Source of the DNA: Thermodesulfobacteriota bacterium
Lineage (GTDB): Bacteria > Desulfobacterota > Desulfobulbia > Desulfobulbales > JBFMBH01
NCBI GenBank assembly: GCA_040755095.1
Contig: JBFMBH010000005.1
Location: 479 to 64,478, forward strand
Length of the DNA: 64,000 nucleotides
Direction: 5' to 3'
Shown piece by piece: positions 2,578-45,565 of the stretch. Position numbers and translations under genes: made by a program. The notes under the pieces are model-generated. The model searched no databases. It was given only the letters and a program-made list of their open reading frames with translations, and had not been told where the DNA came from. Numbering within the stretch: position 1 is the first letter of the stretch; each line of letters opens with the position of its first letter.

Positions 2578-2649
2578 CTTCCTCCTCTGGCCCGGGCATG
2601 ATGCGAACCTGTAGGAATTTGACCATTCTTGGCAGGGAGGATGGCGACC

Positions 2650-6610: not shown

Positions 6611-7585
6611 ATGCGTGTGCAGCTCGGCAGTCCCCTGGTTGTCCTGGCCCTCTTCTGGCTGCCTTTGCTCGGCGGATGCTCGACCGAAGAGCCCGAATCC
6701 CGGATGAAGATCATCGGCGTGCTCAACGCCAACGACAAGCACCTGCCCATGGTGGCCGGCTTCAAGGCCGGCCTGGCGGATCTGGGCTACCAGGAAGGGG
6801 AGAGCATCGTCTATCTGGAGGCCGGGCGGGTCTGCTCGGAAGGGGAGCTGGGGGCGGCAATGGGGGATCTGCTCCGCCGGCGGGTGGATCTGGTGCTGGC
6901 CCTGTCCACCAAAGCGGCGCAGGCTGCGGTGGCGGCGACCGCCGGCACGGCCGTCCCGGTGATCTTTGCCGGGGTCGTCGATCCGCTCGGGTCCGGTCTG
7001 GCCACCAGTATGCGGGCGCCGGATCGGAACGCCACCGGCGTCCGGGCCAGCCCTGGCACCGGCAAGGCCCTGGAGTGGCTGCTCCGCATCCGGCCCGGGG
7101 TGAAGAGGATCCTGGTCCCCTTTGCTGACGACAGTCCCCCGGCGGCCCAAAGCCTGGCCGCCCTCCGCGAGGCGGCGGAGAAGCTTCAGGTGGAGCTGGT
7201 CGTGCCTACCGTCGCCTCGTTGCCGGAGCTGGAGCAGGCTCTGGCCTCGCCGCCCAATGGGGTGGACGGGCTGTTCCTGCTGAGCTCGGCGCTGCTCGCC
7301 CGGCACATGGACCGGTTCGTGGCCGCCGCCATCCGGCACCAGCTGCCGTTGGCCTCGGCCATCGGCCATGAGAACGGGGTGCCGGTCACGGTCGGCCAGG
7401 ACCGCTTCCAGGTGGGGCGCCAGGCGAGTCGTCAGGCCCATGCCGTCCTCCAGGGTACCCCCGCCTGGCGCATCCCCATCGAGCAGCCTGATGTGCTCCT
7501 GCAGCTCCACCTGCCCACTGCCGCTGCCAGCGGCCTGGCCATCCCCCCGGAAGTCCTGATCCTGGCCCAGGATGTCATCCGCTGA
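6611..7585 (+). CDS. Lipoprotein, ABC-transporter-type substrate-binding protein (PF04392-like), copy 2
   Basis: Lipobox LLGGC, GGAGGGAGG RBS, paralogous to 2650..3624 and 20878..21843. Confidence 0.8.
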   Translation: MRVQLGSPLVVLALFWLPLLGGCSTEEPESRMKIIGVLNANDKHLPMVAGFKAGLADLGYQEGESIVYLEAGRVCSEGELGAAMGDLLRRRVDLVLALSTKAAQAAVAATAGTAVPVIFAGVVDPLGSGLATSMRAPDRNATGVRASPGTGKALEWLLRIRPGVKRILVPFADDSPPAAQSLAALREAAEKLQVELVVPTVASLPELEQALASPPNGVDGLFLLSSALLARHMDRFVAAAIRHQLPLASAIGHENGVPVTVGQDRFQVGRQASRQAHAVLQGTPAWRIPIEQPDVLLQLHLPTAAASGLAIPPEVLILAQDVIR

Positions 7586-7609: not shown

Positions 7610-10600
7610 TCAGGGCCGGTACTCGTCCGCCCCCATGTCGTAGTCATCGGTGCCATCACCCAGGCCGGCCACGTCGTACGGCCGGCCCTGGCCGTCGTAG
7701 TCGTCCGCCGGCGCGTTGGCGGTGCCCGCCACGTCGATGGCCCCGGAGGCGCCGAGGCAGCCGGCCACCGGGTCGTCGACGCCGCGGCAGATATGGAAGT
7801 TCCCGCCGGCGTTGGGATTGCCGGCCGTGGCGAACTGCAGGTCCACGAAGACCGGATCGAGGTCGATATTGCCGGTCTTGTCCACACAGGCCGTGCAGCC
7901 GCCGGCGATATCGGTGTAGGTGGTGGTGGGCGAGCCGTTGATCTGGTGGTTGGTGCCGCCGGCGGTATTGCCCCAGAAGATGGAGTTGCGGATGGTGCCG
8001 CCGCCTTGCCAGCCGCCGCCGTTCCTGGCAGCCCGGTTGCCGGCCACCGTCGAGCTGTACAGGCTCATGGTGCCGCTGGTATAGACGCCACCACCGTCGT
8101 TGTACGAGACCCCCTCGATGAGGTTGCCGGTGATCATGCTGTTGGTGACGGTGGCGGTGGCGGTATTGTAGATGCCGCCGCCGTAGGTCTTGGCCTTGTT
8201 GGCCCTGAGCCAGGCCTTGCTCACGCTGGCGGTGGCGTTGCCGGCGACGGTGAGGCCGCCGCCGTAGCCGTTGATCGCCTCGTTCTCCTGGATGGTGGTG
8301 CCGGTGATGTTGAGGACCAGGGCCGGACTGTTGGTGCCGCTCACCGCGGTGTGGATGCCGCCGCTGTTGCGGGCCGAGTTGTTGCTGATGGTGCCGCCGG
8401 TGATGTTGGCGGTCAGGGTCAGCCCGGCCACGTTGCTGGCGGCCAGGTACAGACCGCCGCCGTCGGAGCCGGCGGTGTTGGTGACGGTGTTGGTGTCGAT
8501 GGTGCAGTTGGTGAGCGAAAAGGTCAGGCTGGTGCCGGCCGAGAGGTAGATGCCGGCGCCCTGGGCGGAGGTGGAGTTGTTGGTGATCGCCGTGTTGGTC
8601 ACGGTAATGCTGCTGGTCATGGCGGTCAGGTGCATGCCCCCGCCCATGCCGGTGGAACTGGTGTTGGCGTTCAGCGTGGTATCGGAGACCGAGACGGTCC
8701 CGATGCCGTTGGCATAGATGCCCGGACCGTGGCGGGAGGAGTTGTGGCTGATCGAGGTGGGGCCGGTGATGGTGAGGGTGGTGGCAGCGCCGGTCAGATA
8801 CAGGCCGCCGCCTTCATAGTTGGTGGGGGTTGAATTGTACTCGATGGTGCTGCTGTTGATCACCAGAGGCGAATTGGCGCAGTAGATGCCGCCGGCATGC
8901 TGGCCCGCGGTGTTGTTGCTCACGGTGGTGCCGGTGATCGTGGTGGTGGAGCTGCGGTTGTTGAGATAGATTGCGCCGCCCATGAAGATGGTCTGGTTGG
9001 AGACCAGGCTGCTGTTGGTGATGGTCAGGGCGCCACCGGCATTGGCCGCGTAGACCCCGGAGCCGTAGCGGGAGGAGTTGGGGGCCACGGCGTCACCGAT
9101 GGTGCAGCTGTCGATGGTCGCTCCGCCGCCGTCGATGTGGATCCCGGCGCCCCCATTGTAGTTGTTGGCCGGCGTGTGGCCCTTGACGATGCAGTTCTTG
9201 ATCGTCGGCGCCGCGTTGTTGGAGATGAAGATGCCCCGGTCCTTCTCGGCGCCGGAGAACTGGTTGTCGATGGTGAAGCCGTCCACCACGGCGCTGGCTG
9301 TCTCGCCGTTGCTGAAGGTGAGCACCGGGTTGTTGCCGGCAGCGCCCTGGATGGTGGTATTGGCGGCGCCGTTCTCGGAATAGACGTAGACGTTCTTGCC
9401 GCCGAAGTTGACGTTCTCCGAGTAGGTGCCGTTCTTGACCAGGATGTAGGCGCCGCTCGGGGTGCTGCCGCTGCTGATCGCCCCCTGGATGGAGGTGTAG
9501 TCGCAGCCCGAGGCGCAGACCGTGATGGGGTTGACCACCGTCAAGGTGCCGCCCGGGTCGGCTGGCGTCCCGGTGGCCTCCGCCGCCTCCGTATCCTGGG
9601 CGTAGAAGCGGTACTTGAGGGTGCCGTCGCCGTTGTAGGCCACGGCCCGGCTGGCGGTGAAGAGCTTGCCGTCGGTGTAGGTGGTGTCGCCGGCGTCCAC
9701 CGCGGTCATGTCGTGCTTTTCGCCGGCCTCGTAGGCCAGGTTGTCGTTGGCATCGATCCACACCTGCACAGCGCTGGGGGCGTCGTTGTCTGTGTCGCTG
9801 TACGACACCCGGAAGACGAAGGTGTTGCCGCCAGGACCGGAATCCGGGGCGACGCCGTCGGCGGTGTAGCCGGCCTCGCCGGTCCAGGCCAGGGTGGGGG
9901 CGTTGTTGGGGGTGAAGGTCACGGTGACCGTGCTGTTGGCCGTGGGCGGGCCGGTGGCATCGGCCGTGCCGTCGTTGGCGAAGAAGCGGTAGGTGTAGAC
10001 GCCGTCACCGGTGTAGGCCAGGGGCTGGGTGGCGGCGTACCGCTTGCCGTCGGTCACGGTGGTATCGCCAGCATCCGTGGCGGTCAGGGCCATCTTCTCG
10101 CCCGGCTCGTAAGTGCTGTTGTCGTTGGCGTCCACCCAGACCTGGATCAGGGCCGGCAGGGTGTTGTCGGTATCGGTGTAGTCCACCCGGAACTGGAAGC
10201 TGCTGGCATCCGGACCGCTGTCCGGGTTGACGCCGTCGCTGGCATAGCCGGCCTCGCCGGTCCAGGCCAGGGTGGGGGCATTGTTGGTCACGGTCAGGGT
10301 CTGGTCGGCGGTGGGCAGCCCGGTGGCGTCGTCGCTGCCGTCGGAGGCGAAGAACCGGTACTTGAGGCTGCCGTCGCCGGCAAAGAGCACCGGGACCGCA
10401 GCGGCGTACCGTTTGCCGTCGCTGTACGTGGCGTCGCCGCCGTCCGTGGCGGTCAGGGCGTGCTTTTCGCCCGCCCCGTAAGTGTTGTTGTCATCGGCGT
10501 CCACCCAGACCTCGATGAAGGCCGGCGCCGTGTTGTCAGCATCGGTGTAGTCCACCCGGAAGGCAAAGCTGGTGCCGCCGATGGCGCTGTCCGGATGGAC

Positions 10601-13600
10601 GCCGTCGGCAACGTAATTGGCTTCGCCGGTCCAGGCCAGGGTGGGCGGGTTGTTGGTGACCGTGAGGCTGCCGCCAGCCACCGGCGCGCCGGTGGCCTCG
10701 AAGGTCCCGTCCTGGGCGGAGAAGCGGTACGGGATGCTGCCATCGCCCGCCATGCTCACCGCCAGGGTCAAGGTGTACCGCTTGCCGTCGGAATAGGTGG
10801 TGTCGCCGGCATCGGCGGCAGTCATGGCGTGCTTTTCGCTGGGGCCGTATGTCCCGTTGTCGTCGGCATCCACCCAGACCTCCATCGCCACCGGCGGGTC
10901 GTTGTCGGCATCGGTGTAGTCGACCCGGAAGACAAAGCCGGTGCCGCTGCCGCCGCTGTCCGGGCTGACGCCGTCGGCGGTGTAGCCGGCTTCGCCGGTC
11001 CAGGCCAGGCTGGGCGCGCTCACGGCCGAGCGGTACTCGTCGGCGCCGAGGTCATCCGCCGCCCCCTGGGGCCGGGCATCGCCGTCGAGATCCGTGGCCG
11101 GCGCGTAGGCGGCGTTGCCGTGGTCGACGGCCGCCGAGACGCTCTGGAGGTGGAAGTCGCCGGCCGCCGCATCCACGAACAGGGGGTCGCTGTCCGACAG
11201 ATAGCCCTCGACGGTGAGGGTGTAGGCGGCTCCGGTGTGGTCCAGGTACGGGCGGTTGGTGAAGATGCCGTCGTGGCCGCTGGCCAGGAGGGCGTCCTGG
11301 ATGGTGACCGAGCCGGCGTTGAAATGGACGACATGGCCGCCGCTGGTGGCGCTGTTGTCCCAGAGGATGCAGTTCCGGAAGACGCTGCTGGCGCCCTGGT
11401 TGTAGATGACGCCGCCGCTGCCGGCCGTAGCCTGGTTGCCGGCAAAGGTGGAGTTGACTGCGGTCAGGCTGCCGGTGTTGACGTAGGAAACGCCGCCCTG
11501 GGTGCCCCGGTTGTTGGCCACCAGGCAGCTCTCGAACAGGATGCTGGTGCCGGCGTTGGACGGGTAGACCACGCCACTGGTACCGCTGGCCGTATTGCCG
11601 GTGATGGTGCAACGGACGAAGCTGGCGCCGGAGCCGTTGGCATACACCGCACCACCGGCACCGGTCGCGGTGTTGTCCTTGAGGACGACATCGATGAAGT
11701 CCGCAGAGCCGTTCTGGGAGAAGACCGCACCACCGCCGCCACTGGCGGTGTTGTTGCGGATGGTGCAGTTGGTGAAGGAATGACCAGTGGCCGCATTGAA
11801 GAAGGCACCGGCGCCGTTGCCGGCGGTGTTGTTGTAGATCTCCGAATTGGTGATGGTGGCCACTGCCGCGATGTTGGCGGTGTAGATGCCGCCGCCGTTG
11901 GCGCCCGGGTTGTTGTTGCTGTGGATCTTGCAGTTGTTCACCGTGGCGGTGGCGGAGTTGAAGTAGACACCGATGGTGCCGCCGGTGACGGTGAAGCCGT
12001 CCAGCAGGTTGCCGGAGTTGCTCAAGAACAGCACCACGGTGCCCGGGTTGCTGATCGTGGTCACCTCGGGGCCGCAGACCGAGCGGACCGTGGTGTCGGC
12101 ATCATTGACTCCGGAGAAGGACAGGTTCTCGTTGTAGGTCCCGTCGTAGACCAGGACCGTGTGGGCGCCGTCGACGGCATCGATCGCCCCCTGGATGGTG
12201 GCATACCAGCCTACGCCGCCGCCCGGCCGCACCTTTTGGGCATTGACCACGGTCAGGGTGCTGCCGGTGACCGGCGTGCCGATGGCCGGGTCTGTGCCGT
12301 CCGAGGCGGCGAAGCGGTACGCGAGGACATTGTCGCCGGCCAGGGCCAGGGACATGGTCTTCTTGTACAGCTTGCCATCGGCGCAATTGGCGTCACCGGG
12401 ATCGTCGGCACTGAGATTGTACTTCTCGCCCGGCTCGTAGGCGCTGTTGTCGTTGACATCCACCCAGACCTGGATGTCGCTGGCCGCTGGCGGGCACTGA
12501 TTCTCGGGGTCGGTATAGCGGACGAAAAACTCGAAGTCGGCGCCCGTGGCGCCTGCCGCGGGCTTCACCCCTTCGGCCCGGCAGGTGGCCGCCACCCACT
12601 CCAGAAGCGGTGGGCTGTTGGCCCCGGCCACCACGCTGAAGGTGCTGTCCGCGGCCGGCAGCCCGGTGGCGGCGCTGCTGCCGTCGCTGGCATAGAAGCG
12701 GTAGCCAAGAGTGCCGTCGCCGGCAAAGGCTACCGCCCTGGTGGTGGCGTAGAGCTTGCCGTCGGCATAATTGGTGTCGCCGCCGTCCATCGCGGTCAGG
12801 TCGTGCTTCTCTCCAGCCTCGTACGAGCCGTTGTCGTTGGCGTCGATCCAGACCTGGATGCTCGCCGGCGCCTGGTTGTCGGCATCGGTGTAGCTGACCC
12901 GGAAGGTGAAGCTGGCGCCGTTACCGCCGGTATTGGGGCTGACGCCGTCGTCGGTGAAGGATGCCTCGCCGGTCCAGGCCAGGGTCGGGCCGTTGTTGAG
13001 GATGGTCACGGAGCCATCGCCAGTGGGGGCACCGGTGGCGCTGTTGCTGCCGTCCGAGGCGGTGAAGCGGTAGCGGATGATGTTGTCGCCGGCACTGGTC
13101 AGGGTGAGGCTCTTGGTATAGATCTTGCCGTTCATGACATTGACGTCGCCGGCATCGACCCCGGTCATGGCGTGCTTTTCGCCCGCCTCGTAGGAGCCGT
13201 TGTCGTTGGCATCCACCCAGACCTCGACGAAGCTGGGCGGCTCATTGTTGAAGTCTGTGTATTCCACCCGGAAGGTGAAGGTGGAGGAGGAAGGACCGCT
13301 GTCCGGGCTGGCGCCATCGGCGGTGTAGCCGGTCTCGCCGGTCCAGGAGAGGAAGGGGGCCTGATCCGTGCTCTGGTATGGATTCCGGTCCTTGCCCTCC
13401 AGGTTGTTGTTGCCATGGCAGCCGACACAGATATTGGTCACCGAGTGGTTGATCCAGGCGGTGCCGTCGCTGGCCGCCAGGGGCACATCGGCGGGATCGG
13501 GCGGAACGGGAGCGCCCAGGATGGTGGTGATGGCGTTCTTGTACCAGATCTCCAGGCCCGGCTCGCGGCCGGTGAGCTTGCCGTCCCGGACCATGGCCAA

Positions 13601-15412
13601 CCGCGTGGAGCCATGGACGTTATGACAGTTGGGACAGGTCATCAGGCTGGTGTTGCCGCCGCTCCAGTCCGCCGGATACTGGTAGTTGTTGATCACCATG
13701 TGGTACTCGTGGCGGTTGACGCCAGCGGTGACTAGGTTGGTGCTCATGTTGCTGGAGCTGAGGAACGGGCCCGAGTCGTGGCAGTTGTAGCACAGTCGGG
13801 ACTGGTTGATCAGGTTGCCGGAGTTGGGGGGCCGCGGGACCAGCATGGGCTCCCGGGTGCTGGTGCCGGTGCCCTGGCCCATGCCCACCAGCTTCAGCCG
13901 GAACCCCTCCCGGTAGACGCTGGGGTCGGTGGTCGCCGATTCACCGTCGTCAAAGGTCCTGGGGTCCGCGTCGATGTTGTGGTCGCTGGCGTAATCGTGG
14001 CAGGAGTCGCAGTGCACCGGCCGTCCGGCCAGGGTCTGGATTCCCCCTTTCGAGGGGTAGTTTTCGCCGGCCACCAGGCCGTGGCCGGTCTTGTAGTAGC
14101 CCCAGCCGGTGCCGTAGGTGTAGCTGCCGTCCTCGTCGCCCACCACGTTGGGGGCGCTCACGCCATAGATCTCGGAAGGCTCCTTGTCATGGCAGGTGGC
14201 GCACCACTTCTCCTTGCCCGACCGCAAGGTGCTGTTGTTGGTGGCCAGATAGACGCCGGCATCCCAGTTGGCCTTGGCGCCGAGGATCGGATCGTCGACC
14301 CCGTCGTAATCGCCGCCCGGAGAGTGGCAGGGGTTGCAGACCGTGGTGGCGGCCAGGGTGGTGGCGCTGTCCTTGAAGTTGGGGAAGGCGTTGGTGTCGT
14401 GGCAGCCGTCGCAGCCGATGTTCGGGCCTTTGGCGTCGTCGGTGTCGTTCTCGGTGTGGGTGGAGTGGCTGGCAAAGGTGCCGGCGCCACCCGTGGCGCC
14501 GCCGTAGCCCAGGTCGTGGCCGTGGCAGTCCGGGCAGGTGCCGCCCCCGACGCCGCTGCCGTGGGCAAAGCCGTTGTCGTGGCTGTGGCAGGGGATGCAG
14601 TACGCGCCGGCCTGGCCGCCGCGCACGTTGGTGTGCAACTGGTCCGGGGCCGAGCCGTCGTTGCGGAAATGCCGGGGCAGGGTGTGGCAGACCTCGCAGA
14701 CCCCGTCGTAGACGGCATTGCCATCGGCGTAGGAGTTGGCGCCCTCCTTGCGGAAGAACTTCACGGTCTTCGTGCCGCTGTTGGGGGTGGGCAGGCTGGA
14801 CTTCACCAGCTTGCCGTAGAAGATGGCAAAGGTGTTGCCGGCACTGGCCTTGCCGAGCTCCATGGCCGGATCCACGGTCAGGGTCTCGGCGGAGTTGCCG
14901 GTGATCCGGTAGTTGTACGAGATCTGGCTGGTGTTGGGCATGAGGATGTAGCCCACCAGCGCATCCGGCTCCCAGCCGGCGCCGTCCATGGTCAGGGTGG
15001 TGGCGGTCAGTCCGGTGGAGGTCCCGGTGGCCACGTAGCTGGCGGCACCGTATGTGCGCATCTGCATCTGGTGGTGGGGCCAGTGGCAGGTCCGGCATTC
15101 GATGGACCAGGTGCCACGCTGGCTGTTGGTGGTCCGGCTGGAGTGGGGCACCACGTAGGGGGCCCGCACGTCGTTGTGGCAGCTCCAGCACAGGTTGTTG
15201 AACGGCGTGTCGTCGATGTTCTGAGGCTCATGATCCACCCAGGCAGGGTGCTGATCCTCGACGATGTAGTGGCAGGAGTCGCAGCCGATGGTCTCCTGCG
15301 CATAGTGGGGATAGTCGACCCCCAACTGGTCCGCCCGCACCGTCCGAACCCAGCCCCCGGCCAGCACCAGCACGGTGGTCACGGCCAACGCTGTCATCAT
15401 CCTGATCTTCAT
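7610..15412 (-). CDS. Giant secreted multidomain protein (~2,600 aa): 13-haem cytochrome c module + 7 tandem ~124-aa repeats + 2 right-handed parallel beta-helix blocks
   Basis: Signal peptide MKIRMMTALAVTTVLVLAGGWVRTVRA; RBS GAGAGGG before ATG 15412. Thirteen CxxCH motifs between about 13417 and 15283. Repeats start with LAWTGE.GY..DGV.PD. PbH1-like N-x-[ST]-x-x-x-N-x-A-x-x-GG-[AG]-[IV]-[YF] rungs. Both helix blocks end in D.DG..RP......D[LM]GADEY. Confidence 0.9.
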   Translation of the reverse strand: MKIRMMTALAVTTVLVLAGGWVRTVRADQLGVDYPHYAQETIGCDSCHYIVEDQHPAWVDHEPQNIDDTPFNNLCWSCHNDVRAPYVVPHSSRTTNSQRGTWSIECRTCHWPHHQMQMRTYGAASYVATGTSTGLTATTLTMDGAGWEPDALVGYILMPNTSQISYNYRITGNSAETLTVDPAMELGKASAGNTFAIFYGKLVKSSLPTPNSGTKTVKFFRKEGANSYADGNAVYDGVCEVCHTLPRHFRNDGSAPDQLHTNVRGGQAGAYCIPCHSHDNGFAHGSGVGGGTCPDCHGHDLGYGGATGGAGTFASHSTHTENDTDDAKGPNIGCDGCHDTNAFPNFKDSATTLAATTVCNPCHSPGGDYDGVDDPILGAKANWDAGVYLATNNSTLRSGKEKWCATCHDKEPSEIYGVSAPNVVGDEDGSYTYGTGWGYYKTGHGLVAGENYPSKGGIQTLAGRPVHCDSCHDYASDHNIDADPRTFDDGESATTDPSVYREGFRLKLVGMGQGTGTSTREPMLVPRPPNSGNLINQSRLCYNCHDSGPFLSSSNMSTNLVTAGVNRHEYHMVINNYQYPADWSGGNTSLMTCPNCHNVHGSTRLAMVRDGKLTGREPGLEIWYKNAITTILGAPVPPDPADVPLAASDGTAWINHSVTNICVGCHGNNNLEGKDRNPYQSTDQAPFLSWTGETGYTADGASPDSGPSSSTFTFRVEYTDFNNEPPSFVEVWVDANDNGSYEAGEKHAMTGVDAGDVNVMNGKIYTKSLTLTSAGDNIIRYRFTASDGSNSATGAPTGDGSVTILNNGPTLAWTGEASFTDDGVSPNTGGNGASFTFRVSYTDADNQAPASIQVWIDANDNGSYEAGEKHDLTAMDGGDTNYADGKLYATTRAVAFAGDGTLGYRFYASDGSSAATGLPAADSTFSVVAGANSPPLLEWVAATCRAEGVKPAAGATGADFEFFVRYTDPENQCPPAASDIQVWVDVNDNSAYEPGEKYNLSADDPGDANCADGKLYKKTMSLALAGDNVLAYRFAASDGTDPAIGTPVTGSTLTVVNAQKVRPGGGVGWYATIQGAIDAVDGAHTVLVYDGTYNENLSFSGVNDADTTVRSVCGPEVTTISNPGTVVLFLSNSGNLLDGFTVTGGTIGVYFNSATATVNNCKIHSNNNPGANGGGIYTANIAAVATITNSEIYNNTAGNGAGAFFNAATGHSFTNCTIRNNTASGGGGAVFSQNGSADFIDVVLKDNTATGAGGAVYANGSGASFVRCTITGNTASGTSGVVYPSNAGTSILFESCLVANNRGTQGGVSYVNTGSLTAVNSTFAGNQATAGSGGVIYNQGASSVFRNCILWDNSATSGGHVVHFNAGSVTIQDALLASGHDGIFTNRPYLDHTGAAYTLTVEGYLSDSDPLFVDAAAGDFHLQSVSAAVDHGNAAYAPATDLDGDARPQGAADDLGADEYRSAVSAPSLAWTGEAGYTADGVSPDSGGSGTGFVFRVDYTDADNDPPVAMEVWVDADDNGTYGPSEKHAMTAADAGDTTYSDGKRYTLTLAVSMAGDGSIPYRFSAQDGTFEATGAPVAGGSLTVTNNPPTLAWTGEANYVADGVHPDSAIGGTSFAFRVDYTDADNTAPAFIEVWVDADDNNTYGAGEKHALTATDGGDATYSDGKRYAAAVPVLFAGDGSLKYRFFASDGSDDATGLPTADQTLTVTNNAPTLAWTGEAGYASDGVNPDSGPDASSFQFRVDYTDTDNTLPALIQVWVDANDNSTYEPGEKMALTATDAGDTTVTDGKRYAATQPLAYTGDGVYTYRFFANDGTADATGPPTANSTVTVTFTPNNAPTLAWTGEAGYTADGVAPDSGPGGNTFVFRVSYSDTDNDAPSAVQVWIDANDNLAYEAGEKHDMTAVDAGDTTYTDGKLFTASRAVAYNGDGTLKYRFYAQDTEAAEATGTPADPGGTLTVVNPITVCASGCDYTSIQGAISSGSTPSGAYILVKNGTYSENVNFGGKNVYVYSENGAANTTIQGAAGNNPVLTFSNGETASAVVDGFTIDNQFSGAEKDRGIFISNNAAPTIKNCIVKGHTPANNYNGGAGIHIDGGGATIDSCTIGDAVAPNSSRYGSGVYAANAGGALTITNSSLVSNQTIFMGGAIYLNNRSSTTTITGTTVSNNTAGQHAGGIYCANSPLVINSSTIEYNSTPTNYEGGGLYLTGAATTLTITGPTSISHNSSRHGPGIYANGIGTVSVSDTTLNANTSSTGMGGGMHLTAMTSSITVTNTAITNNSTSAQGAGIYLSAGTSLTFSLTNCTIDTNTVTNTAGSDGGGLYLAASNVAGLTLTANITGGTISNNSARNSGGIHTAVSGTNSPALVLNITGTTIQENEAINGYGGGLTVAGNATASVSKAWLRANKAKTYGGGIYNTATATVTNSMITGNLIEGVSYNDGGGVYTSGTMSLYSSTVAGNRAARNGGGWQGGGTIRNSIFWGNTAGGTNHQINGSPTTTYTDIAGGCTACVDKTGNIDLDPVFVDLQFATAGNPNAGGNFHICRGVDDPVAGCLGASGAIDVAGTANAPADDYDGQGRPYDVAGLGDGTDDYDMGADEYRP
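9530..11008 (-). repeat. Intragenic tandem repeat block B: 4 copies of the same ~124-aa domain
   Basis: The DNA string ctcgccggtccaggccagg (antisense of LAWTGE) recurs near 9885, 10255, 10625 and 10995, and also at 12970. Copies are more alike than those in block A. Confidence 0.85.
12242..13357 (-). repeat. Intragenic tandem repeat block A: 3 copies of a ~124-aa (about 370-bp) domain
   Basis: Protein consensus [LF][AS]WTGE.GYT.DG.SP..G....F.FRV.YTD.DN..P..++VW+D.NDNG.YE.GEKH.+T..D.GD.....GK.Y.......AGD....YRF.ASDGS..ATG.P. The third copy (LLEWVAATCRAEGVKP...) is diverged. Confidence 0.85.
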
Positions 15413-15476
15413 GCCGCCCTCTCTTTGCGATCCTGCGTTGCCAGTCAACCCGCGCACGGCCAACGTGCCTGCGGCC

Positions 15477-17876
15477 CTAAGGGGTCACCCGGAGCACGGC
15501 CCCGTCCGCCAGCAGCGCCGCCGGTGTCAGCCGGCCGTTGGCCACAAAGTCCACCAGGTAGTAGAAGGTGTAGCTGCCCGGCGGCAGGGGTGGCAGCTCC
15601 ACCACCGGCCGGTGGGCGTAGGAGCTTTCGTCCAGGGCTCCCCGCCAGAAGGGCACCAGCCGGCGCTGCCAGATCTGCCGCGTGCTGTCGTAGGCCAGCC
15701 ATTGCTGGCCGGCCCGGATGAGCAGATACCATTCGCAGTTCACTCCCAGGGCAGCGCCCGGGGCCACGGCTACGCTCAGGCGTCCCCGCCCGGCGGCCGC
15801 CAGATCGACCGTATCGAGATCGTTGGCCTTGAGATCCGGCACCGGATAGGGCGAAGGCGCCACGATCGGCGGCAGCGAGACGTCATCCAGCCAGGCCATG
15901 CCGGCCGCTGTCTGCTCCGCCCCTTGCGCCAAGTATTCCCAGCGCAGGACATGGCGGCCCGGCTCCACGGCGAAGCGCTCTTCGTCCCAGTCCCGCTCGC
16001 CGGACCAGCGTCCCCTCTCCTCGCCGTCCACCAGGAAGCGCAGGAGCTGGCCTTCGGGCAGGGTCGAGATCCGGGCCCAGAATCCTACCTCACCCGGGGC
16101 GGTGGCCTCCAGCGCCACCTCCAGGAAGCTGAGTCCCGCATCGCCCACCGCGCCCGCTGCCATGGCCCCGCTGCCGGAGCGGCTGACCCCATTTTGCAGC
16201 TGCCAGGGCGCCACGCCGCCGGAGATCCAGGGCAGGGTCCCCAGCCCGCTCTCGTCAAAGGTCACCAGGCTTGCCGCCGGCAGGAAGCGGGCGGCGGCCG
16301 TCTTGGCCTCGTCCATGGTCAGCTGGCAGCTGGGCTGGGCACCGGTGCAGGCACCGCTCCAGCCGGCAAAGACCTGCTCGGCGCCGGCCGTGGCCACCAG
16401 AGTCACCGGGGTGCCCTCCGGGTACTGGGCGCTGCAGTCGTCCGGGCAGGCAATGCCTGCCGCTGCCACCGAGCCCAGGCCTTGCACCTGAACGGTCAGC
16501 GGCCAGTTGACCGGCTCGGCCCCGAACAGGGCATGGATGATGTGGCTCCGGTCCACGGCCCGGAAGGTGTAGCTGGCCACCGGTCCCTGGGAAACGCCGT
16601 CCACCAGCACGTCAAGGATGGCAAGCCCCGGATCCGGGGTGATCTCGTAGCCTTGATCCTGGCCGTGCAGCACCGGGGAGAGGCCGGGAGGCGAGATGGC
16701 GCCGCCCGGGCTGCTCGTGGCCTCGATCGTATACTCGTTGAGGGCAAAGCGGGCCTCCACCGCGTGGCTCATGAGCACCCGGGGCATGGTCAGCTCGGCC
16801 AGCGGGCCGGCGTCGTCGCCGTCTACCAGCACCGCGGCCACGTGGTAGCCGGCTTCGGCGCTGACCGCCAGGCGCAGGTCCTGGCCGGCGGGCACCGGAA
16901 TGCGGCCCGCCGGTGCAATCCGGCCGCCGGCCCGGGCCCAGGCCTCCACCACCGGGGTGGGGGCAGGGCCGAAGACCTCCACGGTGCCGGCGTTGAGGGA
17001 GGCGACCAGCACCTGGCCGGTGCTGGCCACCGCCACGGACAGGGGGGTGCGCAAGGGGCTCTCCAAGTCGAAGATGGTGCTCAGATGCTCGCCGTCGCCA
17101 GCGAAGACCTGAACCACGTTCTGGTACGCATCGCTGACCAGCACCCGGCCGGCGTCGTCCACGGCCAGGCCCAGGGGCTTGATCAGCAGGCCGTCGCCGA
17201 TGCCAAAGGTGCCGAAGGCGCGCCGGTAGCGGCCCGCCAGATCGAAGACCTGCACCCGCGCCCCTTCATGGGGTCCCATGGCCGAGGTGACCAGGGGCAG
17301 GTCAGCCACCAGAAGCTCGTGCCGGACGTCATCCACGGCCAGGGCCGTGGGGTGGTTGAGCTGCCCGGCGCCACTCCCGGCCCCGGCAAAGGAGAAGAGC
17401 CGCCGGCCGTTCCCGTCATAGACCTTGATCACGCCGTCCCGGTCGTCGGCCACATAGACGGTGCCATTGGCAGCAACGGCAATGGCCAACGGCCGGCCAA
17501 GCTCGCCATCCCCTTGGCCCAGTGCATGGAGTCTCTTGCGGTCGGCGCCGAACACCTGCACCGAGCCGTTGGTCACGCTGCCGGCGAAGATCCGGTCGTC
17601 CGGGCCCACCGCCAGACTGACCGGCTGGGTCAGACCGTCGAGGCCCGGCAGAGACCGTCCCTCCCGATCCCACGCCGCCACCCGGTTCTCACCGGCCGGA
17701 ATGCCGTAGATTCGGTCCTGCCGGTCCAGCGCCATGGCGGTGACCTTGCCGGTGAGGATGGGCGCCTGGCGTCCGAAGCCTTCGGCCGGACCGGCGGCCC
17801 CGGCCGCCGGCAGGAAGGGTGCCAGGACCAGAACAGCCAGCAGCAACAGGATCCCGCATCGCCACGTTCCCTTCAT
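15477..17876 (-). CDS. Secreted NHL-repeat beta-propeller protein with two divergent InlB-B-repeat-like domains and a ~300-aa C-terminal extension
   Basis: Signal peptide MKGTWRCGILLLLAVLVLAPFLPAAGAAG, with ATG at 17876. NHL units such as LGRPLAIAVAANGTVYVADDRDGVIKVYD and KPLGLAVDDAGRVLVSDAYQNVVQVF. InlB-B-like WPLTVQVQGLGSVAAAGIACPDDCSAQYPEGTPVTLVATAGAEQVFAGWSGACTG...CQLTMD. Confidence 0.85.
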   Translation of the reverse strand: MKGTWRCGILLLLAVLVLAPFLPAAGAAGPAEGFGRQAPILTGKVTAMALDRQDRIYGIPAGENRVAAWDREGRSLPGLDGLTQPVSLAVGPDDRIFAGSVTNGSVQVFGADRKRLHALGQGDGELGRPLAIAVAANGTVYVADDRDGVIKVYDGNGRRLFSFAGAGSGAGQLNHPTALAVDDVRHELLVADLPLVTSAMGPHEGARVQVFDLAGRYRRAFGTFGIGDGLLIKPLGLAVDDAGRVLVSDAYQNVVQVFAGDGEHLSTIFDLESPLRTPLSVAVASTGQVLVASLNAGTVEVFGPAPTPVVEAWARAGGRIAPAGRIPVPAGQDLRLAVSAEAGYHVAAVLVDGDDAGPLAELTMPRVLMSHAVEARFALNEYTIEATSSPGGAISPPGLSPVLHGQDQGYEITPDPGLAILDVLVDGVSQGPVASYTFRAVDRSHIIHALFGAEPVNWPLTVQVQGLGSVAAAGIACPDDCSAQYPEGTPVTLVATAGAEQVFAGWSGACTGAQPSCQLTMDEAKTAAARFLPAASLVTFDESGLGTLPWISGGVAPWQLQNGVSRSGSGAMAAGAVGDAGLSFLEVALEATAPGEVGFWARISTLPEGQLLRFLVDGEERGRWSGERDWDEERFAVEPGRHVLRWEYLAQGAEQTAAGMAWLDDVSLPPIVAPSPYPVPDLKANDLDTVDLAAAGRGRLSVAVAPGAALGVNCEWYLLIRAGQQWLAYDSTRQIWQRRLVPFWRGALDESSYAHRPVVELPPLPPGSYTFYYLVDFVANGRLTPAALLADGAVLRVTP

Positions 17877-17934
17877 GATTGCAGACCTCGCCTCGGAATG
17901 GTCGGCCTCTGGAGGTCGGGGAGCCCAGGGGGCC

Positions 17935-19065
17935 TCAGATCCCGTCCTTGGTGGAATGACATTTGAAACAGCCCGTGCCGGCGGCGGCGCCGGTGGTGCC
18001 CACCACCATGGCTGTCCGGTCCCAGCGCAGCATGTCCGGGAAAGGACTGCCATGGGCGCGGTGGCAGGACAGGCAGATGACCTTGTCGGTGCCTGGACGT
18101 ACGACGTTGGCCGCAAAACCGGTCAGGGTCGGCTCCGGCCGGCCCACCGGCACCTGGGGGTCATAGACCGTGTAGCTGGTGTACTCGGACCCCGCCTCGC
18201 CGGGAATGACCGCATCGGCGGGGTGCCGCAGCCAGGGGCTGGCGCCGCCGCCGTTGTCGGTGCCCATGAAGGTGGTGGCAAAGCCGGGAGAGTGGAAGTT
18301 GTAGTGGCAGCCGGCACAAAACTTGCCAATCGATTGCGGACTCTGGTTGTCCGAGCCGTCGCCGCCGTAATAGGTGTTGTGAGCGGTACCGGTCGGGCTC
18401 TGCTCCCAGTCAGGATCCTCGATGCCAGTGACACCGGCACCGCCCAGGAAATCGTGACCGGAGGGGGCGGCCAGGAAGCGGTACCAGCCGCCGTCTGCGC
18501 CCACCGGCTGGCCGGCCGGGTCGCCGCCGTGGTGCCTGACGCTGTTGTGGCAGCCCTGGCAGCCGTTCTTGCGGCCGCCGGTGGTCTGGGCATCGGTCAG
18601 GGTCAGGGAGACATGGCAGCTGTTGGCGCAGCCGACCGCGCCCGGCGCCACCTCGAGGGCGGCGTCTCTGGCCGAGACGCCCCGGACGTTGTGGCCGTGC
18701 TCGTCGCCCAGCGCGGCCACCCAGTAGAAGTTGCCTCCAGCCAGCGGGTCGGCGGGCGGAACCAGATTGTAGACGATGGGAATGCGGGAATCGGCGACAC
18801 TGACGATGGTTGCCCCGGCACTGCTTGTGTGGCAGCCGACGCAGTCGGTGACCAGGAGGGCGCCCTGGGGGCCGCTACCGGTGCCACCGCTCAGGCTGCC
18901 GCCGCTCCAGCCCGCCCCGGTGCCACTGGCCACCACCGCGGCGCCGGCCTGGCTGTTGTGCATGGTGTGGCAATTGCTGCACAGGCCGCTCACCCGAGCG
19001 TGACTGGTCGATTCCCAGCACAGCACCATGCCCATCGCCAGAGCCATGATCCGTCCGTCGTGCAT
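17935..19065 (-). CDS. OmcS-like multihaem cytochrome c, paralogue 1 (7 haem motifs, one of them CX3CH)
   Basis: Motifs CSNCHTMHNSQ, CVGCH, CANSCH, CQGCH, CAGCH, WLRHP, CLSCHRAHGS and C-terminal GCFKCHSTKDGI. GGAG lies 7 nt before ATG 19065 (MHDGRIMALAMG...). The longer ORF back to 19455 has a Pro/Arg-rich, non-protein-like N-terminus. Confidence 0.8.
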   Translation of the reverse strand: MHDGRIMALAMGMVLCWESTSHARVSGLCSNCHTMHNSQAGAAVVASGTGAGWSGGSLSGGTGSGPQGALLVTDCVGCHTSSAGATIVSVADSRIPIVYNLVPPADPLAGGNFYWVAALGDEHGHNVRGVSARDAALEVAPGAVGCANSCHVSLTLTDAQTTGGRKNGCQGCHNSVRHHGGDPAGQPVGADGGWYRFLAAPSGHDFLGGAGVTGIEDPDWEQSPTGTAHNTYYGGDGSDNQSPQSIGKFCAGCHYNFHSPGFATTFMGTDNGGGASPWLRHPADAVIPGEAGSEYTSYTVYDPQVPVGRPEPTLTGFAANVVRPGTDKVICLSCHRAHGSPFPDMLRWDRTAMVVGTTGAAAGTGCFKCHSTKDGI

Positions 19066-19393: not shown

Positions 19394-19798
19394 TCAGCCA
19401 GCGTTTCCGGCGTTGCGCAGGGTCCGGCTGGGGGGAGTCGGACGGCAGGGGGCACGTTGGGCCGCGAGCCTGTCCAGAAACAGGGACAGCTCCAGAAAGA
19501 GATCCGAGGGCAGCTGGCAGAAGGCGACGCCCAGACGGAAGAGGCGGCGGTGCCCTGCTCCGACCTCGGTGCATGAGGTCACCCGGCCGCTGAGGCGAAC
19601 CCGGGAGGTCAGGCGGAACGGAAACTGGACCACCAGCTCCAGGTGGGCTCCTGGAGGCAGGCACTGCTCGCAGACCAGACAGAGGCCACCCTGGCTCAGG
19701 TCCTGACTCTGGGCCATGCAAAAGGGAGCCTGGGATCCTTGCCGCCGCAGGCTCAGGACCAGCGGGCGGTCAAGACGGCAGTACTGGCGCGTTTCCAT
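19394..19798 (-). CDS. PilZ-domain (putative c-di-GMP binding) protein
   Basis: RQYCRLDRP (RxxxR-like) followed by DLSQGG (D-x-S-x-x-G). GGAGGAG RBS before ATG 19798. Confidence 0.65.
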   Translation of the reverse strand: METRQYCRLDRPLVLSLRRQGSQAPFCMAQSQDLSQGGLCLVCEQCLPPGAHLELVVQFPFRLTSRVRLSGRVTSCTEVGAGHRRLFRLGVAFCQLPSDLFLELSLFLDRLAAQRAPCRPTPPSRTLRNAGNAG

Positions 19799-19841
19799 GG
19801 CTGGCTCTCCTCCTGTCCGGCTGCCGTCCCGTACAAAACGA

Positions 19842-20537
19842 TCACGGGGCAGCTGCGCCGGTTCCCGGCAGCTCGGCGAGGCGCTGCCGGGCCCGGCCGG
19901 CCAACTGCCCATCGGGGTAGCGGTCGATCAATGTCTGGAATCCCTGGCGGGCTGCCGTCAGGTCGCCCAGCTGGCTCTGGGACTCGGCACGGTAGAACAG
20001 CCACAGGGGCGACTTGCTGTCGATCCTGTCCGGGGATGCGGTGGCGGTAGCAGACAACTGCAGGAGCTCGGCCCAGGAGCCGTTCAAATACAACGCCCTG
20101 GCCATGGAGATCTCTGCGGCCGGCAGCACCGGGGAGGCGGGATAGCGGCTTCGGAGCTGGGCACGGCGTGCCAGCGCTGCCGCCACCCGGGGCGGCTGAT
20201 AGTCCCGCAGATCCATCTCGATCAGGCGCCAGTAGCTTTCCTGGGCCAGGGGCACATCCGGACACTGGTCGATGATCTCCTGGTACAGATCCGTCATCCG
20301 CCCCAGGTTCGCGGTCCGGTCCGGTCCTTGCGCCAGGTCGTGGATGGTGGAGAAGAGGGCCATGGCCCTCTTCTCCTGGTCATCACGGGACATCGGCGCC
20401 TTGTGCACGGGGCCCGCCTGGGAATCGGCCGTGATCCCTGCCGCCTCCGGTTGGGCAGCGGGGGCAGACGGCGGCCGCCACAGATGGGGGGCAAGAAGAA
20501 GGCTCGTGATCAGGACGACAAGAGCGGTTGGCGGCAT
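19842..20537 (-). CDS. Exported TPR-like protein (YbgF/BamD-like helical repeats)
   Basis: Signal-like N-terminus MPPTALVVLITSLLLAPHLW; GGAGAAAAAATG start context. C-terminal TPR-like LWLFYRAESQSQLGDLTAARQGFQTLIDRYPDGQLAGRARQRLAEL. Confidence 0.55.
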   Translation of the reverse strand: MPPTALVVLITSLLLAPHLWRPPSAPAAQPEAAGITADSQAGPVHKAPMSRDDQEKRAMALFSTIHDLAQGPDRTANLGRMTDLYQEIIDQCPDVPLAQESYWRLIEMDLRDYQPPRVAAALARRAQLRSRYPASPVLPAAEISMARALYLNGSWAELLQLSATATASPDRIDSKSPLWLFYRAESQSQLGDLTAARQGFQTLIDRYPDGQLAGRARQRLAELPGTGAAAP

Positions 20538-21843: not shown

Positions 21844-21859
21844 ACGAGGACCTGCTGCT

Positions 21860-41718: not shown

Positions 41719-41729
41719 GCGGAAAAAGA

Positions 41730-45522: not shown

Positions 45523-45565
45523 GGAGGAGCTTCTCGAACAGCTCCGAAAGAGGCCGGCGATGAGG

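What the first reader, a model, noticed from the sequence alone, without database searches (positions are those of the whole stretch)
7610..15412. 2,600-aa secreted chimera: 13-haem cytochrome module fused to adhesin-like repeats and two pectate-lyase-type beta-helices
The N-terminal ~690 aa carry 13 CxxCH motifs, interrupted by a beta-rich insertion (aa ~140-250). Then come 3 repeats, a ~400-aa PbH1 beta-helix, 4 repeats and a ~640-aa beta-helix. Each helix block ends in a ...D.DG..RP......D[LM]GADEY cap. Beta-helix plus Ig-like repeat architecture is typical of surface adhesins or S-layer-associated fibres. Covalently attaching a 13-haem wire to it would place a redox module on a long rigid stalk. 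That could be a mineral- or partner-cell-contacting electron conduit, or an anchor for the OmcS-like filament encoded two genes upstream. I do not recognise this architecture as described.
Basis: partly seen in the sequence, partly recalled or inferred. Interest (0 to 1): 0.85.

Follow-up and report, generated by a model that had tools for sequence, protein, structure and literature searches.

The report
Giant 13-haem cytochrome on adhesin stalk
This is a real 2,600-residue secreted protein with a conserved 13-haem electron-carrying head joined to a long adhesin-like stalk. It belongs to a family that is widespread in uncultured anaerobes, has never been studied experimentally, and probably fixes a redox module to surfaces outside the cell.

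Summary
One uninterrupted ORF (7610-15412, minus strand) encodes 2,600 aa:
- a Sec-type signal peptide;
- 13 CxxCH motifs within aa 44-666, split by a compact beta-barrel insert;
- 3 + 4 copies of a ~123-aa Ig-like repeat;
- two right-handed beta-helices, each ending in the D.DG..RP...GADEY cap.

It is not an assembly chimera. Four independently assembled homologues align end to end across every module junction.

It is also not a one-off. The 13-haem head is the best-conserved part of the protein. All 13 motifs and 11 further His are invariant in 57 sequences. Homologues fall into 451 protein clusters (50% identity) at E<=1e-30 and occur in at least 206 species-level genomes. About two thirds of the 85 retrieved loci also carry the repeats and a beta-helix.

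The commonest neighbour is an NHL beta-propeller gene (24 of 85 loci). Here the cluster reads TPR, PilZ, OmcS homologue, NHL, giant cytochrome.

The most likely role is a secreted, surface- or matrix-tethered relay for extracellular electron transfer. That role is inferred, not shown.

I found no paper on this bacterial family. The closest described concept is the ANME archaeal MHC-C (multihaem plus pectin-lyase-like domain). A cultured relative, Desulfobacterota strain M19, makes the family testable.

The parts
7610..15412 (-). Gene for the 2,600-aa secreted multihaem/beta-helix protein (stop codon at 7610-7612)
   Evidence: 100% match to NCBI MEW6218264.1.
15332..15412 (-). Sec-type signal peptide, aa 1-27 (MKIRMM...VRTVRA|DQ). 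No lipobox cysteine.
   Evidence: Read from the sequence. Homologues have similar N-termini. No signal-peptide predictor was available.
15053..15331 (-). Haem sub-module A, aa 28-120: haems 1-3 (C44, C75, C106)
   Evidence: Cytochrom_c3_2, Cytochrome_C7, Paired_CXXCH_1. Motifs invariant. Present in 44 of 85 related loci.
14717..15052 (-). Beta-barrel insert, aa 121-232, with no Cys or His
   Evidence: AF2 pLDDT >90, all strands. No Pfam family. No significant PDB fold match.
13358..14716 (-). Haem core, aa 233-685: haems 4-13. The most widely conserved module.
   Evidence: Found in all 85 loci. The equivalent of haems 5-9 matches Pfam Mtrc-MtrF_II-IV_dom in homologues P0055 and P0073.
12239..13357 (-). 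Ig-like (GEVED-type) repeats 1-3, aa 686-1058
   Evidence: GEVED, 37.7 bits. AF2 beta-sandwiches. Foldseek hits to xanthanase, FdeC, SiiE and ICAM.
11015..12238 (-). Right-handed beta-helix 1, aa 1059-1466
   Evidence: Pfam Beta_helix 50.8 bits and Chlam_PMP. AF2 model. Foldseek hits to LnbX 5gqc, pectin methylesterase 1xg2 and PL6 lyase 7dmk.
11033..11158 (-). Cap 1 (choice-of-anchor Q motif, aa 1419-1460, ...DLDGDARPQGAADDLGADEY)
   Evidence: NCBIfam NF041518, 37.2 bits against a cut-off of 25. Motif located.
9527..11014 (-). Ig-like repeats 4-7, aa 1467-1962
7613..9526 (-). Right-handed beta-helix 2, aa 1963-2600. It ends in cap 2 (...DYDGQGRPYD...DMGADEYRP) at the extreme C-terminus.
   Evidence: Pfam Beta_helix 54.3 bits. 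Motif located. About two thirds of 120 homologues end with the same cap and have no anchor tail.
15477..17876 (-). Upstream neighbour: secreted NHL beta-propeller protein with InlB-type B-repeats (799 aa). There is a 64-nt gap to the giant gene.
   Evidence: Pfam NHL and Flg_new_2. Homologue next to the giant gene in 24 of 85 loci, 23 of them on the same strand.
17935..19065 (-). OmcS homologue (376 aa; 6 CxxCH plus one CxxxCH)
   Evidence: phmmer E 8.8e-8 to OmcS 6ef8, aa 27-363 against 8-360. Sequence. Homologue present in 6 of 85 loci.
19394..19912 (-). PilZ-domain ORF between the TPR and OmcS-like genes (probable start at M39, nt 19798)
   Evidence: Pfam PilZ, 38.3 bits against a cut-off of 22.5.
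19842..20537 (-). TPR protein with signal peptide (231 aa); first gene of the same-strand run
   Evidence: Pfam TPR_6 and YfiO-like. Start position read. Homologue present in 6 of 85 loci, including L001, L012, L016 and L043.

Best explanation
The gene encodes a secreted extracellular multihaem c-type cytochrome. Its conserved N-terminal 13-haem head is permanently joined to a haem-free stalk that is predicted to be rigid: seven Ig-like domains and two right-handed beta-helices.

Proposed mechanism:
1. The protein is exported by Sec and matured in the periplasm, where haem is attached at 13 CxxCH sites. There are enough conserved His for bis-His ligation.
2. It is then moved across the outer membrane, presumably by type II secretion, as for other outer-surface cytochromes.
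3. Outside the cell the stalk binds a polysaccharide, mineral or cell surface and holds the head in place.
4. The head relays electrons between the cell's other outer-surface cytochromes (the co-encoded OmcS homologue and the porin-cytochrome systems elsewhere in the window) and an insoluble partner.
5. The stalk cannot conduct, so it determines where the head sits, not how electrons travel.
6. The co-encoded NHL beta-propeller is the likeliest docking or assembly partner.

Shown: the anatomy, conservation, fold, family size and gene linkage. Inferred: the export route, localisation, ligand, direction of electron flow and partners.
For: - Motifs and conservation: 13 CxxCH far above chance. All 13 motifs plus H36, 90, 113, 284, 316, 319, 444, 478, 568, 571, 600 and M607 are invariant, and H278 and H299 nearly so, in 36-57 homologues.
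- The head is the best-conserved module: 40-61% identity over all 700 aa. The C-terminal decoration varies (Calx-beta, Laminin_G, FN3, Big_5).
- Stalk folds: the high-confidence model matches adhesins and carbohydrate-active beta-helices, and profile hits include Rhombotarget A and pectinesterases. No catalytic lyase or hydrolase family was hit.
- Anchoring: there is a signal peptide, but no lipobox, no transmembrane tail and no sorting tail in this protein or in 120 homologues.
- Context here: TPR, PilZ, OmcS homologue, NHL and the giant gene lie on one strand, with 58- and 64-nt gaps between the last three.
- Context elsewhere: NHL linkage in 24 of 85 loci, and OmcS-NHL-TPR-giant in L012, L016 and L043.
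- The window carries many further EET cytochromes.
- Literature: NHL propellers accompany outer-membrane cytochrome clusters in D. ferrophilus and in the Uet system (PMC5815863; PMC9900912). A pectin-lyase-like domain in ANME MHC-C was proposed to recognise partner cell walls (PMC9012536).
Against: - There are no expression, localisation or binding data for any family member.
- The head could not be modelled with confidence (pLDDT 58.5) and has no solved relative. A continuous haem chain is therefore assumed, not seen.
- No secretion-system gene is linked in the window.
- Context is not conserved in many loci. OmcS linkage is rare.
- The stalk ligand is unknown.
- Family members also occur in iron and sulfur oxidisers, so the direction of electron flow is open.
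Confidence: 0.55

Rival explanations
1. Electron-uptake or oxidation device. The architecture is the same, but the head accepts electrons from reduced solids (Fe(II) minerals, S0/polysulfide, a cathode or a donor partner cell) and passes them into the cell.
For: The haem core occurs in Sideroxydans, Ca. Thiodiazotropha, Sedimenticola and ANME-3 genomes. A full-architecture member occurs in the sulfur-disproportionating isolate Desulfobacterota M19. NHL-linked cytochrome clusters are implicated in electron uptake in D. ferrophilus and Uet.
Against: The oxidiser homologues are stand-alone ~790-820-aa decahaem proteins without the stalk. The window's own context is Geobacter-type, with OmcS homologues. 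Sequence alone cannot give haem potentials.
Confidence: 0.2
2. Structural matrix or fibre subunit. The beta-helices and Ig repeats self-associate side by side or end to end, as in mastigonemes or S-layer-like sheets, and build a haem-decorated sheath or fibre rather than binding a foreign ligand.
For: Foldseek hits include the mastigoneme fibre 8wa2. Tandem paralogues with the same head but different stalks are common. The extreme C-terminal cap is conserved without any anchor.
Against: There is no evidence of oligomerisation. Heads about 45 nm apart along a stalk would not form a conductive path unless packed laterally. No filament-type inter-subunit haem-ligation motif was identified.
Confidence: 0.12
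3. Redox-coupled carbohydrate-active enzyme. One or both beta-helices are catalytic (lyase, hydrolase or esterase), and the haems supply or remove electrons or sense redox state.
For: The fold resembles LnbX, pectin methylesterase and PL6 alginate lyase. Some homologues hit NosD.
Against: Only generic Beta_helix, Chlam_PMP and DUF5123 families were hit, with no catalytic family at E<=1. Sequence identity to the enzymes is 10-15%. Stalk domains are freely swapped among paralogues, whereas the haem head is the constant part.
Confidence: 0.06
4. Artefact: a frameshift-fused or mis-assembled chimera of a cytochrome gene and an adhesin gene.
For: The contig is from a metagenome-assembled genome. 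The repeats could in principle mislead an assembler.
Against: There are end-to-end colinear homologues from independent assemblies, the same module order in P0002, P0006, P0008 and P0028, and uniform GC3 of 0.91 across the ORF.
Confidence: 0.01

Closest known systems
ANME MHC type C (large archaeal multihaem cytochromes with a pectin-lyase-like domain; Chadwick et al. 2022, PMC9012536)
   Same: A very large secreted multihaem cytochrome is fused to a pectin-lyase-type beta-helix with no membrane anchor. The proposed role is recognition of a partner's cell surface during extracellular electron transfer.
   Different: It is archaeal. The beta-helix is N-terminal and the haems follow, whereas here the haems come first. 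Homology between its haem region and this head was not tested. The only ANME-3 relatives found here are stand-alone 683-765-aa proteins without a helix.
OmcS of Geobacter sulfurreducens (PDB 6ef8) and OmcS-like DA_402 of Desulfurivibrio alkaliphilus (PMC12545173)
   Same: The neighbouring gene 17935-19065 is an OmcS homologue with 6 CxxCH plus one extra CxnCH motif, as described for DA_402. Both are part of outer-surface electron transfer.
   Different: The giant protein itself has no detectable similarity to OmcS. Its head has 13 haems and a non-haem stalk. Filament formation by the neighbour is untested.
MtrC/OmcA/MtrF outer-membrane decahaem cytochromes (Pfam PF22113, domains II/IV)
   Same: In homologues P0055 and P0073 the stretch equivalent to haems 5-9 passes the PF22113 cut-off (54.5 and 35.2 bits against 30), which suggests an MtrC-type pentahaem unit inside the core.
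   Different: The window protein itself does not reach E<=1 for PF22113. It has no lipoprotein anchor, no flavin-binding beta-barrel domains I/III, and no adjacent MtrAB-type genes.
NHL-propeller-associated outer-membrane cytochrome clusters (D. ferrophilus DFE_0448-0451 and 0461-0465; Uet cluster UetHI)
   Same: An extracellular cytochrome gene is adjacent to a secreted NHL beta-propeller gene.
   Different: Those cytochromes are small or medium sized and lack a beta-helix/Ig stalk. Homology of their haem domains to this head was not tested.
Giant bacterial adhesins built from Ig-like repeats or beta-helices (SiiE 2yn5, FdeC 4e9l; Chlamydia Pmp-type repeats; Rhombotarget A 9cdu)
   Same: They share tandem beta-sandwich arrays and a right-handed beta-helix with Pmp-type repeats.
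   Different: None of them carries haem. They use T1SS, T5SS or sortase-type anchoring signals that are absent here.
OetF (fibronectin-domain cytochrome of the Oet conduit in syntrophic SRB; PMC10553843)
   Same: It is a cytochrome fused to an adhesion-type domain, proposed to contact the matrix or a partner cell.
   Different: Its domain type (FN3), size and gene cluster are different.

Membership tests
Multihaem c-type cytochrome | Several CxxCH haem-attachment motifs in an exported protein | tested here: met
   13 CxxCH against 0.017 expected. Signal peptide present. Pfam Cytochrome_C7, Cytochrom_c3_2 and Paired_CXXCH_1 all above cut-off.
Multihaem c-type cytochrome | A conserved distal axial ligand for each haem | tested here: met
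   11 invariant plus 2 nearly invariant non-motif His, and one invariant Met, in 36-57 homologues. Assignment of each ligand to a particular haem is not possible without a structure.
Multihaem c-type cytochrome | Covalent haem actually bound | not testable with these tools
   Needs protein chemistry.
Right-handed parallel beta-helix repeat proteins (Pfam PF13229, pectin-lyase fold) | Profile match above the curated cut-off | tested here: met
   50.8 bits (helix 1) and 54.3 bits (helix 2) against a cut-off of 25.9.
Right-handed parallel beta-helix repeat proteins (Pfam PF13229, pectin-lyase fold) | Beta-helical three-dimensional fold | tested here: met
   AF2 pLDDT 90.8. Foldseek matches to LnbX, pectin methylesterase and PL6 lyase. 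Helix 2 was not modelled.
Pectate/pectin lyase enzymes | Match to a catalytic lyase family or a catalytic-site signature | tested here: not met
   No pectate-lyase or glycoside-hydrolase family at E<=1 in either helix. Only weak profile hits to pectinesterases. The term 'pectate-lyase-type' holds for the fold only.
Choice-of-anchor Q domain (NCBIfam NF041518) | Profile match above the cut-off | tested here: met
   aa 1419-1460, 37.2 bits against 25. NCBI gives the protein this name. The second cap shares the motif but was not reported as a separate hit.
OmcS family (applies to neighbour 17935-19065, not to the giant protein) | Full-length sequence homology with aligned haem motifs | tested here: met
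   E 8.8e-8, aa 27-363 against 8-360 of 6ef8, with CxxCH motifs aligned.
OmcS family (applies to neighbour 17935-19065, not to the giant protein) | Polymerisation into a filament with inter-subunit haem ligation | not testable with these tools
   Needs cryo-EM or multimer modelling with haems.
MtrC/OmcA-type outer-membrane cytochromes | PF22113 pentahaem domain II/IV | tested here: inconclusive
   No hit at E<=1 in the window protein. Hits above cut-off in homologues P0055 and P0073 at the equivalent region.
MtrC/OmcA-type outer-membrane cytochromes | N-terminal lipoprotein anchor | tested here: not met
   No Cys in the signal peptide region; the first Cys is C44 of haem 1.
ANME MHC-C | [quoted passage not shown] | tested here: not met
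   The source is a bacterial MAG (Thermodesulfobacteriota) and the domain order is reversed. The family definition is taken from PMC9012536.
Type V (autotransporter) or type I (RTX) giant adhesins | C-terminal beta-barrel translocator, or C-terminal T1SS signal with RTX repeats and no Sec signal | tested here: not met
   The protein ends at the cap motif with no further domain. It has an N-terminal signal peptide. No autotransporter or RTX family appears in Pfam or NCBIfam.

The most novel reading that the evidence does not exclude
These proteins are 'redox adhesins', a modular and so far unrecognised class. One conserved 13-haem head is displayed on interchangeable Ig/beta-helix/Calx/FN3 stalks. 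Each stalk targets a different surface (mineral, elemental sulfur, EPS or partner cell). The NHL propeller docks the head to the cell's OmcS-type wires or outer-membrane conduits. Tandem paralogues would then give one organism a repertoire of surface-specific electrical contacts.
Probability: 0.3. Interest if true: 0.75.

Novelty: new variant of a known kind. Interest (0 to 1): 0.55.

Why it matters
Extracellular electron transfer is usually explained with small or medium-sized cytochromes: MtrC, and the OmcS, OmcE and OmcZ wires. How redox proteins are positioned and held at minerals, in the matrix or at partner cells is poorly understood.

This analysis defines a large and taxonomically broad family with a constant 13-haem head and variable adhesin-type stalks. 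Homologues of the head fall into 451 clusters (50% identity) at E<=1e-30, and at least 206 species-level genomes carry one. The family would be a direct molecular answer to the positioning problem.

It has no solved structure, no curated family model for the head, and no experimental study that I could find. A cultured carrier exists (Desulfobacterota strain M19, a sulfur disproportionator), so the hypothesis can be tested.

The shared core in ANME-3 archaea, iron oxidisers and sulfur-oxidising symbionts also suggests a widely exchanged haem module.

Tried and rejected
- Solved relatives of the haem head. phmmer with aa 1-694 found nothing at E<=1. The family profile gave only marginal NrfA-type two-haem matches.
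- Structure of the head. AlphaFold2 with 36 homologues gave pLDDT 58.5. Foldseek against the PDB then found nothing at E<=0.001; the top hits match only the small beta-barrel insert. I draw no fold conclusion for the head.
- First structure job.
- Literature. Searches combining multihaem (various spellings) with beta-helix, pectin or pectate lyase, PbH1, NosD, choice-of-anchor and adhesin found no paper on the bacterial family. Only ANME MHC-C turned up. The OMC-prediction paper and the Desulfuromonadia cytochromome survey do not mention such fusions.
- OmcS linkage as a family trait. Rejected: 6 of 85 loci.
- Assembly chimera. Rejected.
- Exact-sequence contig lookup for the window protein. 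Nothing on record.
- Promoter and terminator scan. Uninformative: counts were at shuffle level.
- ANME-3 locus. Checked for an MHC-B/C-type neighbourhood; the neighbours are unrelated.
- Anchors in homologues. Looked for C-terminal sorting or transmembrane tails and found none.
Full report
**What is there**

The minus-strand ORF 7610..15463 is uninterrupted. The ATG at 15412 has a GAGAGGG Shine-Dalgarno-like sequence just upstream and gives a 2,600-aa product. That product is identical to the NCBI entry MEW6218264.1, 'MAG: choice-of-anchor Q domain-containing protein [Thermodesulfobacteriota bacterium]'. The window is about 68% G+C, and the ORF has GC3 of 0.91, like its neighbours. The long antisense ORFs across it are by-products of that composition.

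**Anatomy**

- **Signal peptide.** Residues 1-27 look like a Sec signal peptide (basic N-region, hydrophobic core, VRA|DQ) with no lipobox cysteine.
- **Haem motifs.** Thirteen CxxCH motifs lie at aa 44-666 and none later. Composition predicts 0.017, and 2,000 shuffles never gave more than one.
- **Insert.** Haems 1-3 (aa 28-120) are separated from haems 4-13 (aa 233-685) by a Cys/His-free segment at aa 121-232. AlphaFold2 models this segment confidently as a small all-beta domain (pLDDT >90). The rest of the head is modelled poorly (mean pLDDT 58.5), as expected for a fold that depends on haem.
- **Repeats.** Seven ~123-aa repeats, arranged 3 + 4, are 43-59% identical to the first, with 36 invariant columns. 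They match Pfam GEVED.
- **Beta-helices.** Both intervening and terminal blocks pass Pfam Beta_helix (50.8 and 54.3 bits against a cut-off of 25.9), and helix 1 also has Chlamydia-Pmp-type repeats.
- **Model of the stalk.** The model of aa 686-1465 is of high confidence (pLDDT 90.8, pTM 0.80). It shows three beta-sandwiches followed by a right-handed beta-helix.
- **Fold matches.** For the sandwiches, Foldseek finds xanthanase accessory modules, ICAMs, the adhesins FdeC and SiiE, and macroglobulin domains. For the helix it finds LnbX, pectin methylesterase, a PL6 lyase and mastigoneme. A family profile also hits Rhombotarget A and pectinesterases.
- **Caps.** Each helix ends in D.DG..RP...GADEY. 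The first cap is the NCBIfam choice-of-anchor Q domain. The second is the very C-terminus of the protein.

The only adjustment is that the insert sits at about aa 121-232 rather than 140-250.

**Not an artefact**

| Homologue | Identity | Query residues aligned |
|---|---|---|
| P0002 | 57% | 1-2597 |
| P0008 | 47% | 32-2597 |
| P0028 | 42% | 1-2600 |
| P0007 | 46% | 2-2599 |

The same module order (head, 3 repeats, helix, 4 repeats, helix) recurs in P0002, P0006 (Nitrospirae), P0008 and P0028. A shorter form of about 1,450 aa (head, 2-3 repeats, one helix) is also common.

**A family, with the haem head as its constant**

- A search of 5.8 billion proteins returned 323 hits. The top 120 are nearly all 1,400-4,200-aa proteins that combine multihaem Pfam families with Beta_helix, and they are unnamed or generically named.
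- In most full-length hits, 10-13 CxxCH motifs lie within roughly the first 600-750 residues after a signal peptide; the exceptions carry further haem modules.
- The head aligns over all 700 aa at 40-61% identity in more than 80 of them.
- In alignments of 57 and 36 sequences, all 13 motifs are invariant. So are H36, H90, H113, H284, H316, H319, H444, H478, H568, H571, H600 and M607, and H278 and H299 are nearly so. That is enough distal ligands for 13 six-coordinate haems. This last point is an inference.
- An exhaustive phmmer search with the head against 1.84 billion cluster representatives found 1,156 clusters at E<=1e-3, 879 at E<=1e-10 and 451 at E<=1e-30.
- Among one genome per species, at least 206 encode a relative. 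They span Nitrospirota, Desulfobulbales/Desulfurivibrionaceae, Desulfuromonadales/Geobacteraceae, Zixibacteria, Polarisedimenticolaceae, Calditrichaceae, Actinomycetota, Gammaproteobacteria (Sedimenticola, Ca. Thiodiazotropha), Sideroxydans and ANME-3 archaea.
- Of the 85 loci retrieved, all contain the core (haems 4-13). Of these, 59 have the repeats, 56 a helix-1-type block, 44 the N-terminal three-haem sub-module and 35 a helix-2-type block.
- The C-terminal decoration varies between paralogues and lineages (Calx-beta, Laminin_G_3, FN3, Big_5). Tandem paralogues are frequent.
- In homologues P0055 and P0073, the stretch equivalent to haems 5-9 passes Pfam's MtrC/MtrF domain II/IV model. The window protein does not.
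- The head has no relative among solved structures, either by sequence or by fold as far as the weak model allows.

**Context**

The same strand carries five genes in a row:

| Coordinates | Product | Evidence |
|---|---|---|
| 19842-20537 | TPR protein with signal peptide | |
| 19394-19912 | PilZ-domain ORF | |
| 17935-19065 | OmcS homologue, E 8.8e-8 to 6ef8 across its length; 6 CxxCH plus one CxxxCH, the pattern described for DA_402 of Desulfurivibrio (PMC12545173) | |
| 15477-17876 | Secreted NHL beta-propeller with InlB-type repeats | |
| 7610-15412 | The giant gene | |

The last three are separated by 58 and 64 nt, so co-transcription is likely. This is an inference; the consensus scan was uninformative.

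Across the 85 loci an NHL homologue lies beside the giant gene in 24, on the same strand in 23 and usually directly upstream. OmcS-like and TPR genes each occur in only 6. The order OmcS-NHL-TPR-giant recurs in three Desulfobulbaceae/Desulfurivibrionaceae loci, and NHL plus TPR also precede the tandem pair in L001. Other loci have unrelated neighbours.

NHL propellers are already known as companions of outer-membrane cytochrome clusters in Desulfovibrio ferrophilus (PMC5815863, PMC9769857) and in the Uet system (PMC9900912).

The rest of the window is rich in extracellular electron transfer (EET) genes.

**How it most likely works**

Haem attachment requires export to the periplasm. The protein has a signal peptide, but no lipobox, no transmembrane segment and no sorting tail. 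Almost none of 120 homologues has one either, and about two thirds end exactly at the GADEY.P cap.

The stalk folds are those of adhesins and carbohydrate-binding or carbohydrate-active beta-helices. No catalytic family is detected.

From textbook dimensions, seven Ig-like domains and about 40 helix rungs would span roughly 45 nm without any cofactor. The stalk therefore cannot conduct. It can only hold the head somewhere.

The best-supported reading (confidence about 0.55) is a secreted cytochrome tethered to a surface or to the matrix. The variable stalk chooses the attachment site (EPS, mineral, sulfur or partner cell). The constant head relays electrons to or from the cell's other outer-surface cytochromes. 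The NHL protein acts as a docking or assembly partner.

The export route (presumably type II), the ligand, which end of the protein faces the cell, and the direction of electron flow are all unshown.

**Rivals**

- **Same device used for electron uptake (0.2).** The core occurs in iron and sulfur oxidisers, and a full-architecture member occurs in a sulfur disproportionator.
- **Self-assembling haem-decorated fibre or sheath (0.12).**
- **Redox-coupled carbohydrate enzyme (0.06).**
- **Assembly artefact (0.01).**

**Comparison with what is known**

The nearest published concept is ANME MHC type C. [quoted passage not shown] The present protein works like that in outline but is not a member. 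It is bacterial, its domain order is reversed, and homology of the haem regions is untested.

OetF (an FN3-bearing cytochrome) and the ANME S-layer cytochromes show that fusing adhesion or structural domains to cytochromes is a known theme.

I found no paper describing the bacterial 13-haem-head family. Pfam and NCBIfam have no dedicated model for the head.

I therefore rate it a new variant of a known kind. It is neither unique nor categorically new, but it is a large and coherent family that has not been studied. The cultured Desulfobacterota strain M19 (PMC12243485, PMC12998232) encodes a 1,517-aa member (P0073), which makes experiments feasible.

**Verdict**

The architecture and the OmcS neighbour are right. 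'Undescribed and rare' is wrong on rarity and only half right on description. The functional idea is plausible but untested, and it needs the correction that the stalk is a tether rather than a wire.
- Interest is 0.55.

Noticed in passing
window 19394-19912 (-): A PilZ-domain ORF (Pfam 38.3 bits against a cut-off of 22.5) sits between the TPR gene and the OmcS homologue on the same strand. This hints at c-di-GMP control of the cytochrome cluster.
   Followed up: partly
window 2629-3624, 3624-6455, 6611-7585, 20824-21843, 21800-24868 (+); L005 18966-22453: PF04392 'ABC_sub_bind' periplasmic binding proteins, two of them paired with dCache-HAMP sensor kinases, flank the cluster on both sides. 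The same pair lies beside the closest homologue P0002 in an unrelated assembly. This may be a dedicated sensory system.
   Followed up: partly
window 38720-46834 (-): A second EET island. It holds another OmcS homologue (41839-43008, E 7e-8 to 6ef8), two further ~390-420-aa five-CxxCH cytochromes (38720-39904 and 45566-46834), an NHL propeller (44471-45445) and a 12-haem c3/c7-type cytochrome (43608-44408).
   Followed up: partly
window 47002-57307 (+): This run of genes may be a porin-cytochrome-type module. It comprises a 750-aa protein with no family (only a weak KdgM-porin-like hit), an LpoB/CsgG-like lipoprotein (49256-50041), a PPIase (52193-53992), a 26-haem cytochrome (54099-56123) and a 16-haem cytochrome (56102-57307).
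   Followed up: no
L082 5064-7115; L085 9629-11926 (ANME-3 Methanosarcinaceae MAGs): These archaea carry stand-alone 683-765-aa proteins with 11-12 haems. They are 49-50% identical to aa 190-431 of the window protein. An unrelated stretch of about 70 extra residues (net) replaces the conserved 'EDGSYTYGTGWGYYKTGHG' region, and there is no beta-helix. The neighbouring genes are unrelated. This suggests inter-domain transfer of the haem core.
   Followed up: partly
L068, L070, L074, L075 (Ca. Thiodiazotropha, Sideroxydans, Sedimenticolaceae): Sulfur- and iron-oxidiser genomes carry stand-alone ~790-820-aa decahaem proteins built on the same core (36-40% identity) and lacking the stalk.
   Followed up: partly
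window 14717-15052 (-) (aa 121-232): The beta-barrel insert between haems 3 and 4 is modelled with high confidence and is conserved together with haems 1-3 in 44 of 85 loci. It has no Pfam family and no significant PDB fold match; the best hits are phage tail-tip proteins and ATPase N-terminal barrels at E>0.01.
   Followed up: partly
C-termini of P0001-P0120: About two thirds of homologues end within a few residues of the ...D.DG..RP...D.GADEY.P motif, with no anchor after it. A motif this conserved at the extreme C-terminus might itself be a recognition or secretion signal.
   Followed up: no
L001 1165-19897; L002 4962-22667; L003 114-14900: Tandem paralogues share the 12-13-haem head but carry different stalks (Calx-beta/Laminin_G, Beta_helix, GSu_C4xC__C2xCH, Big_5) and sit side by side in other genomes.
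   Followed up: partly
window 8897-13735 (+), 13778-15721 (+), 15375-17966 (+): Very long antisense ORFs (up to 1,612 aa) overlap the real genes. They are Ala/Gly/Val/Arg-rich and are by-products of the 68% G+C content and high GC3, not genes.
   Followed up: yes
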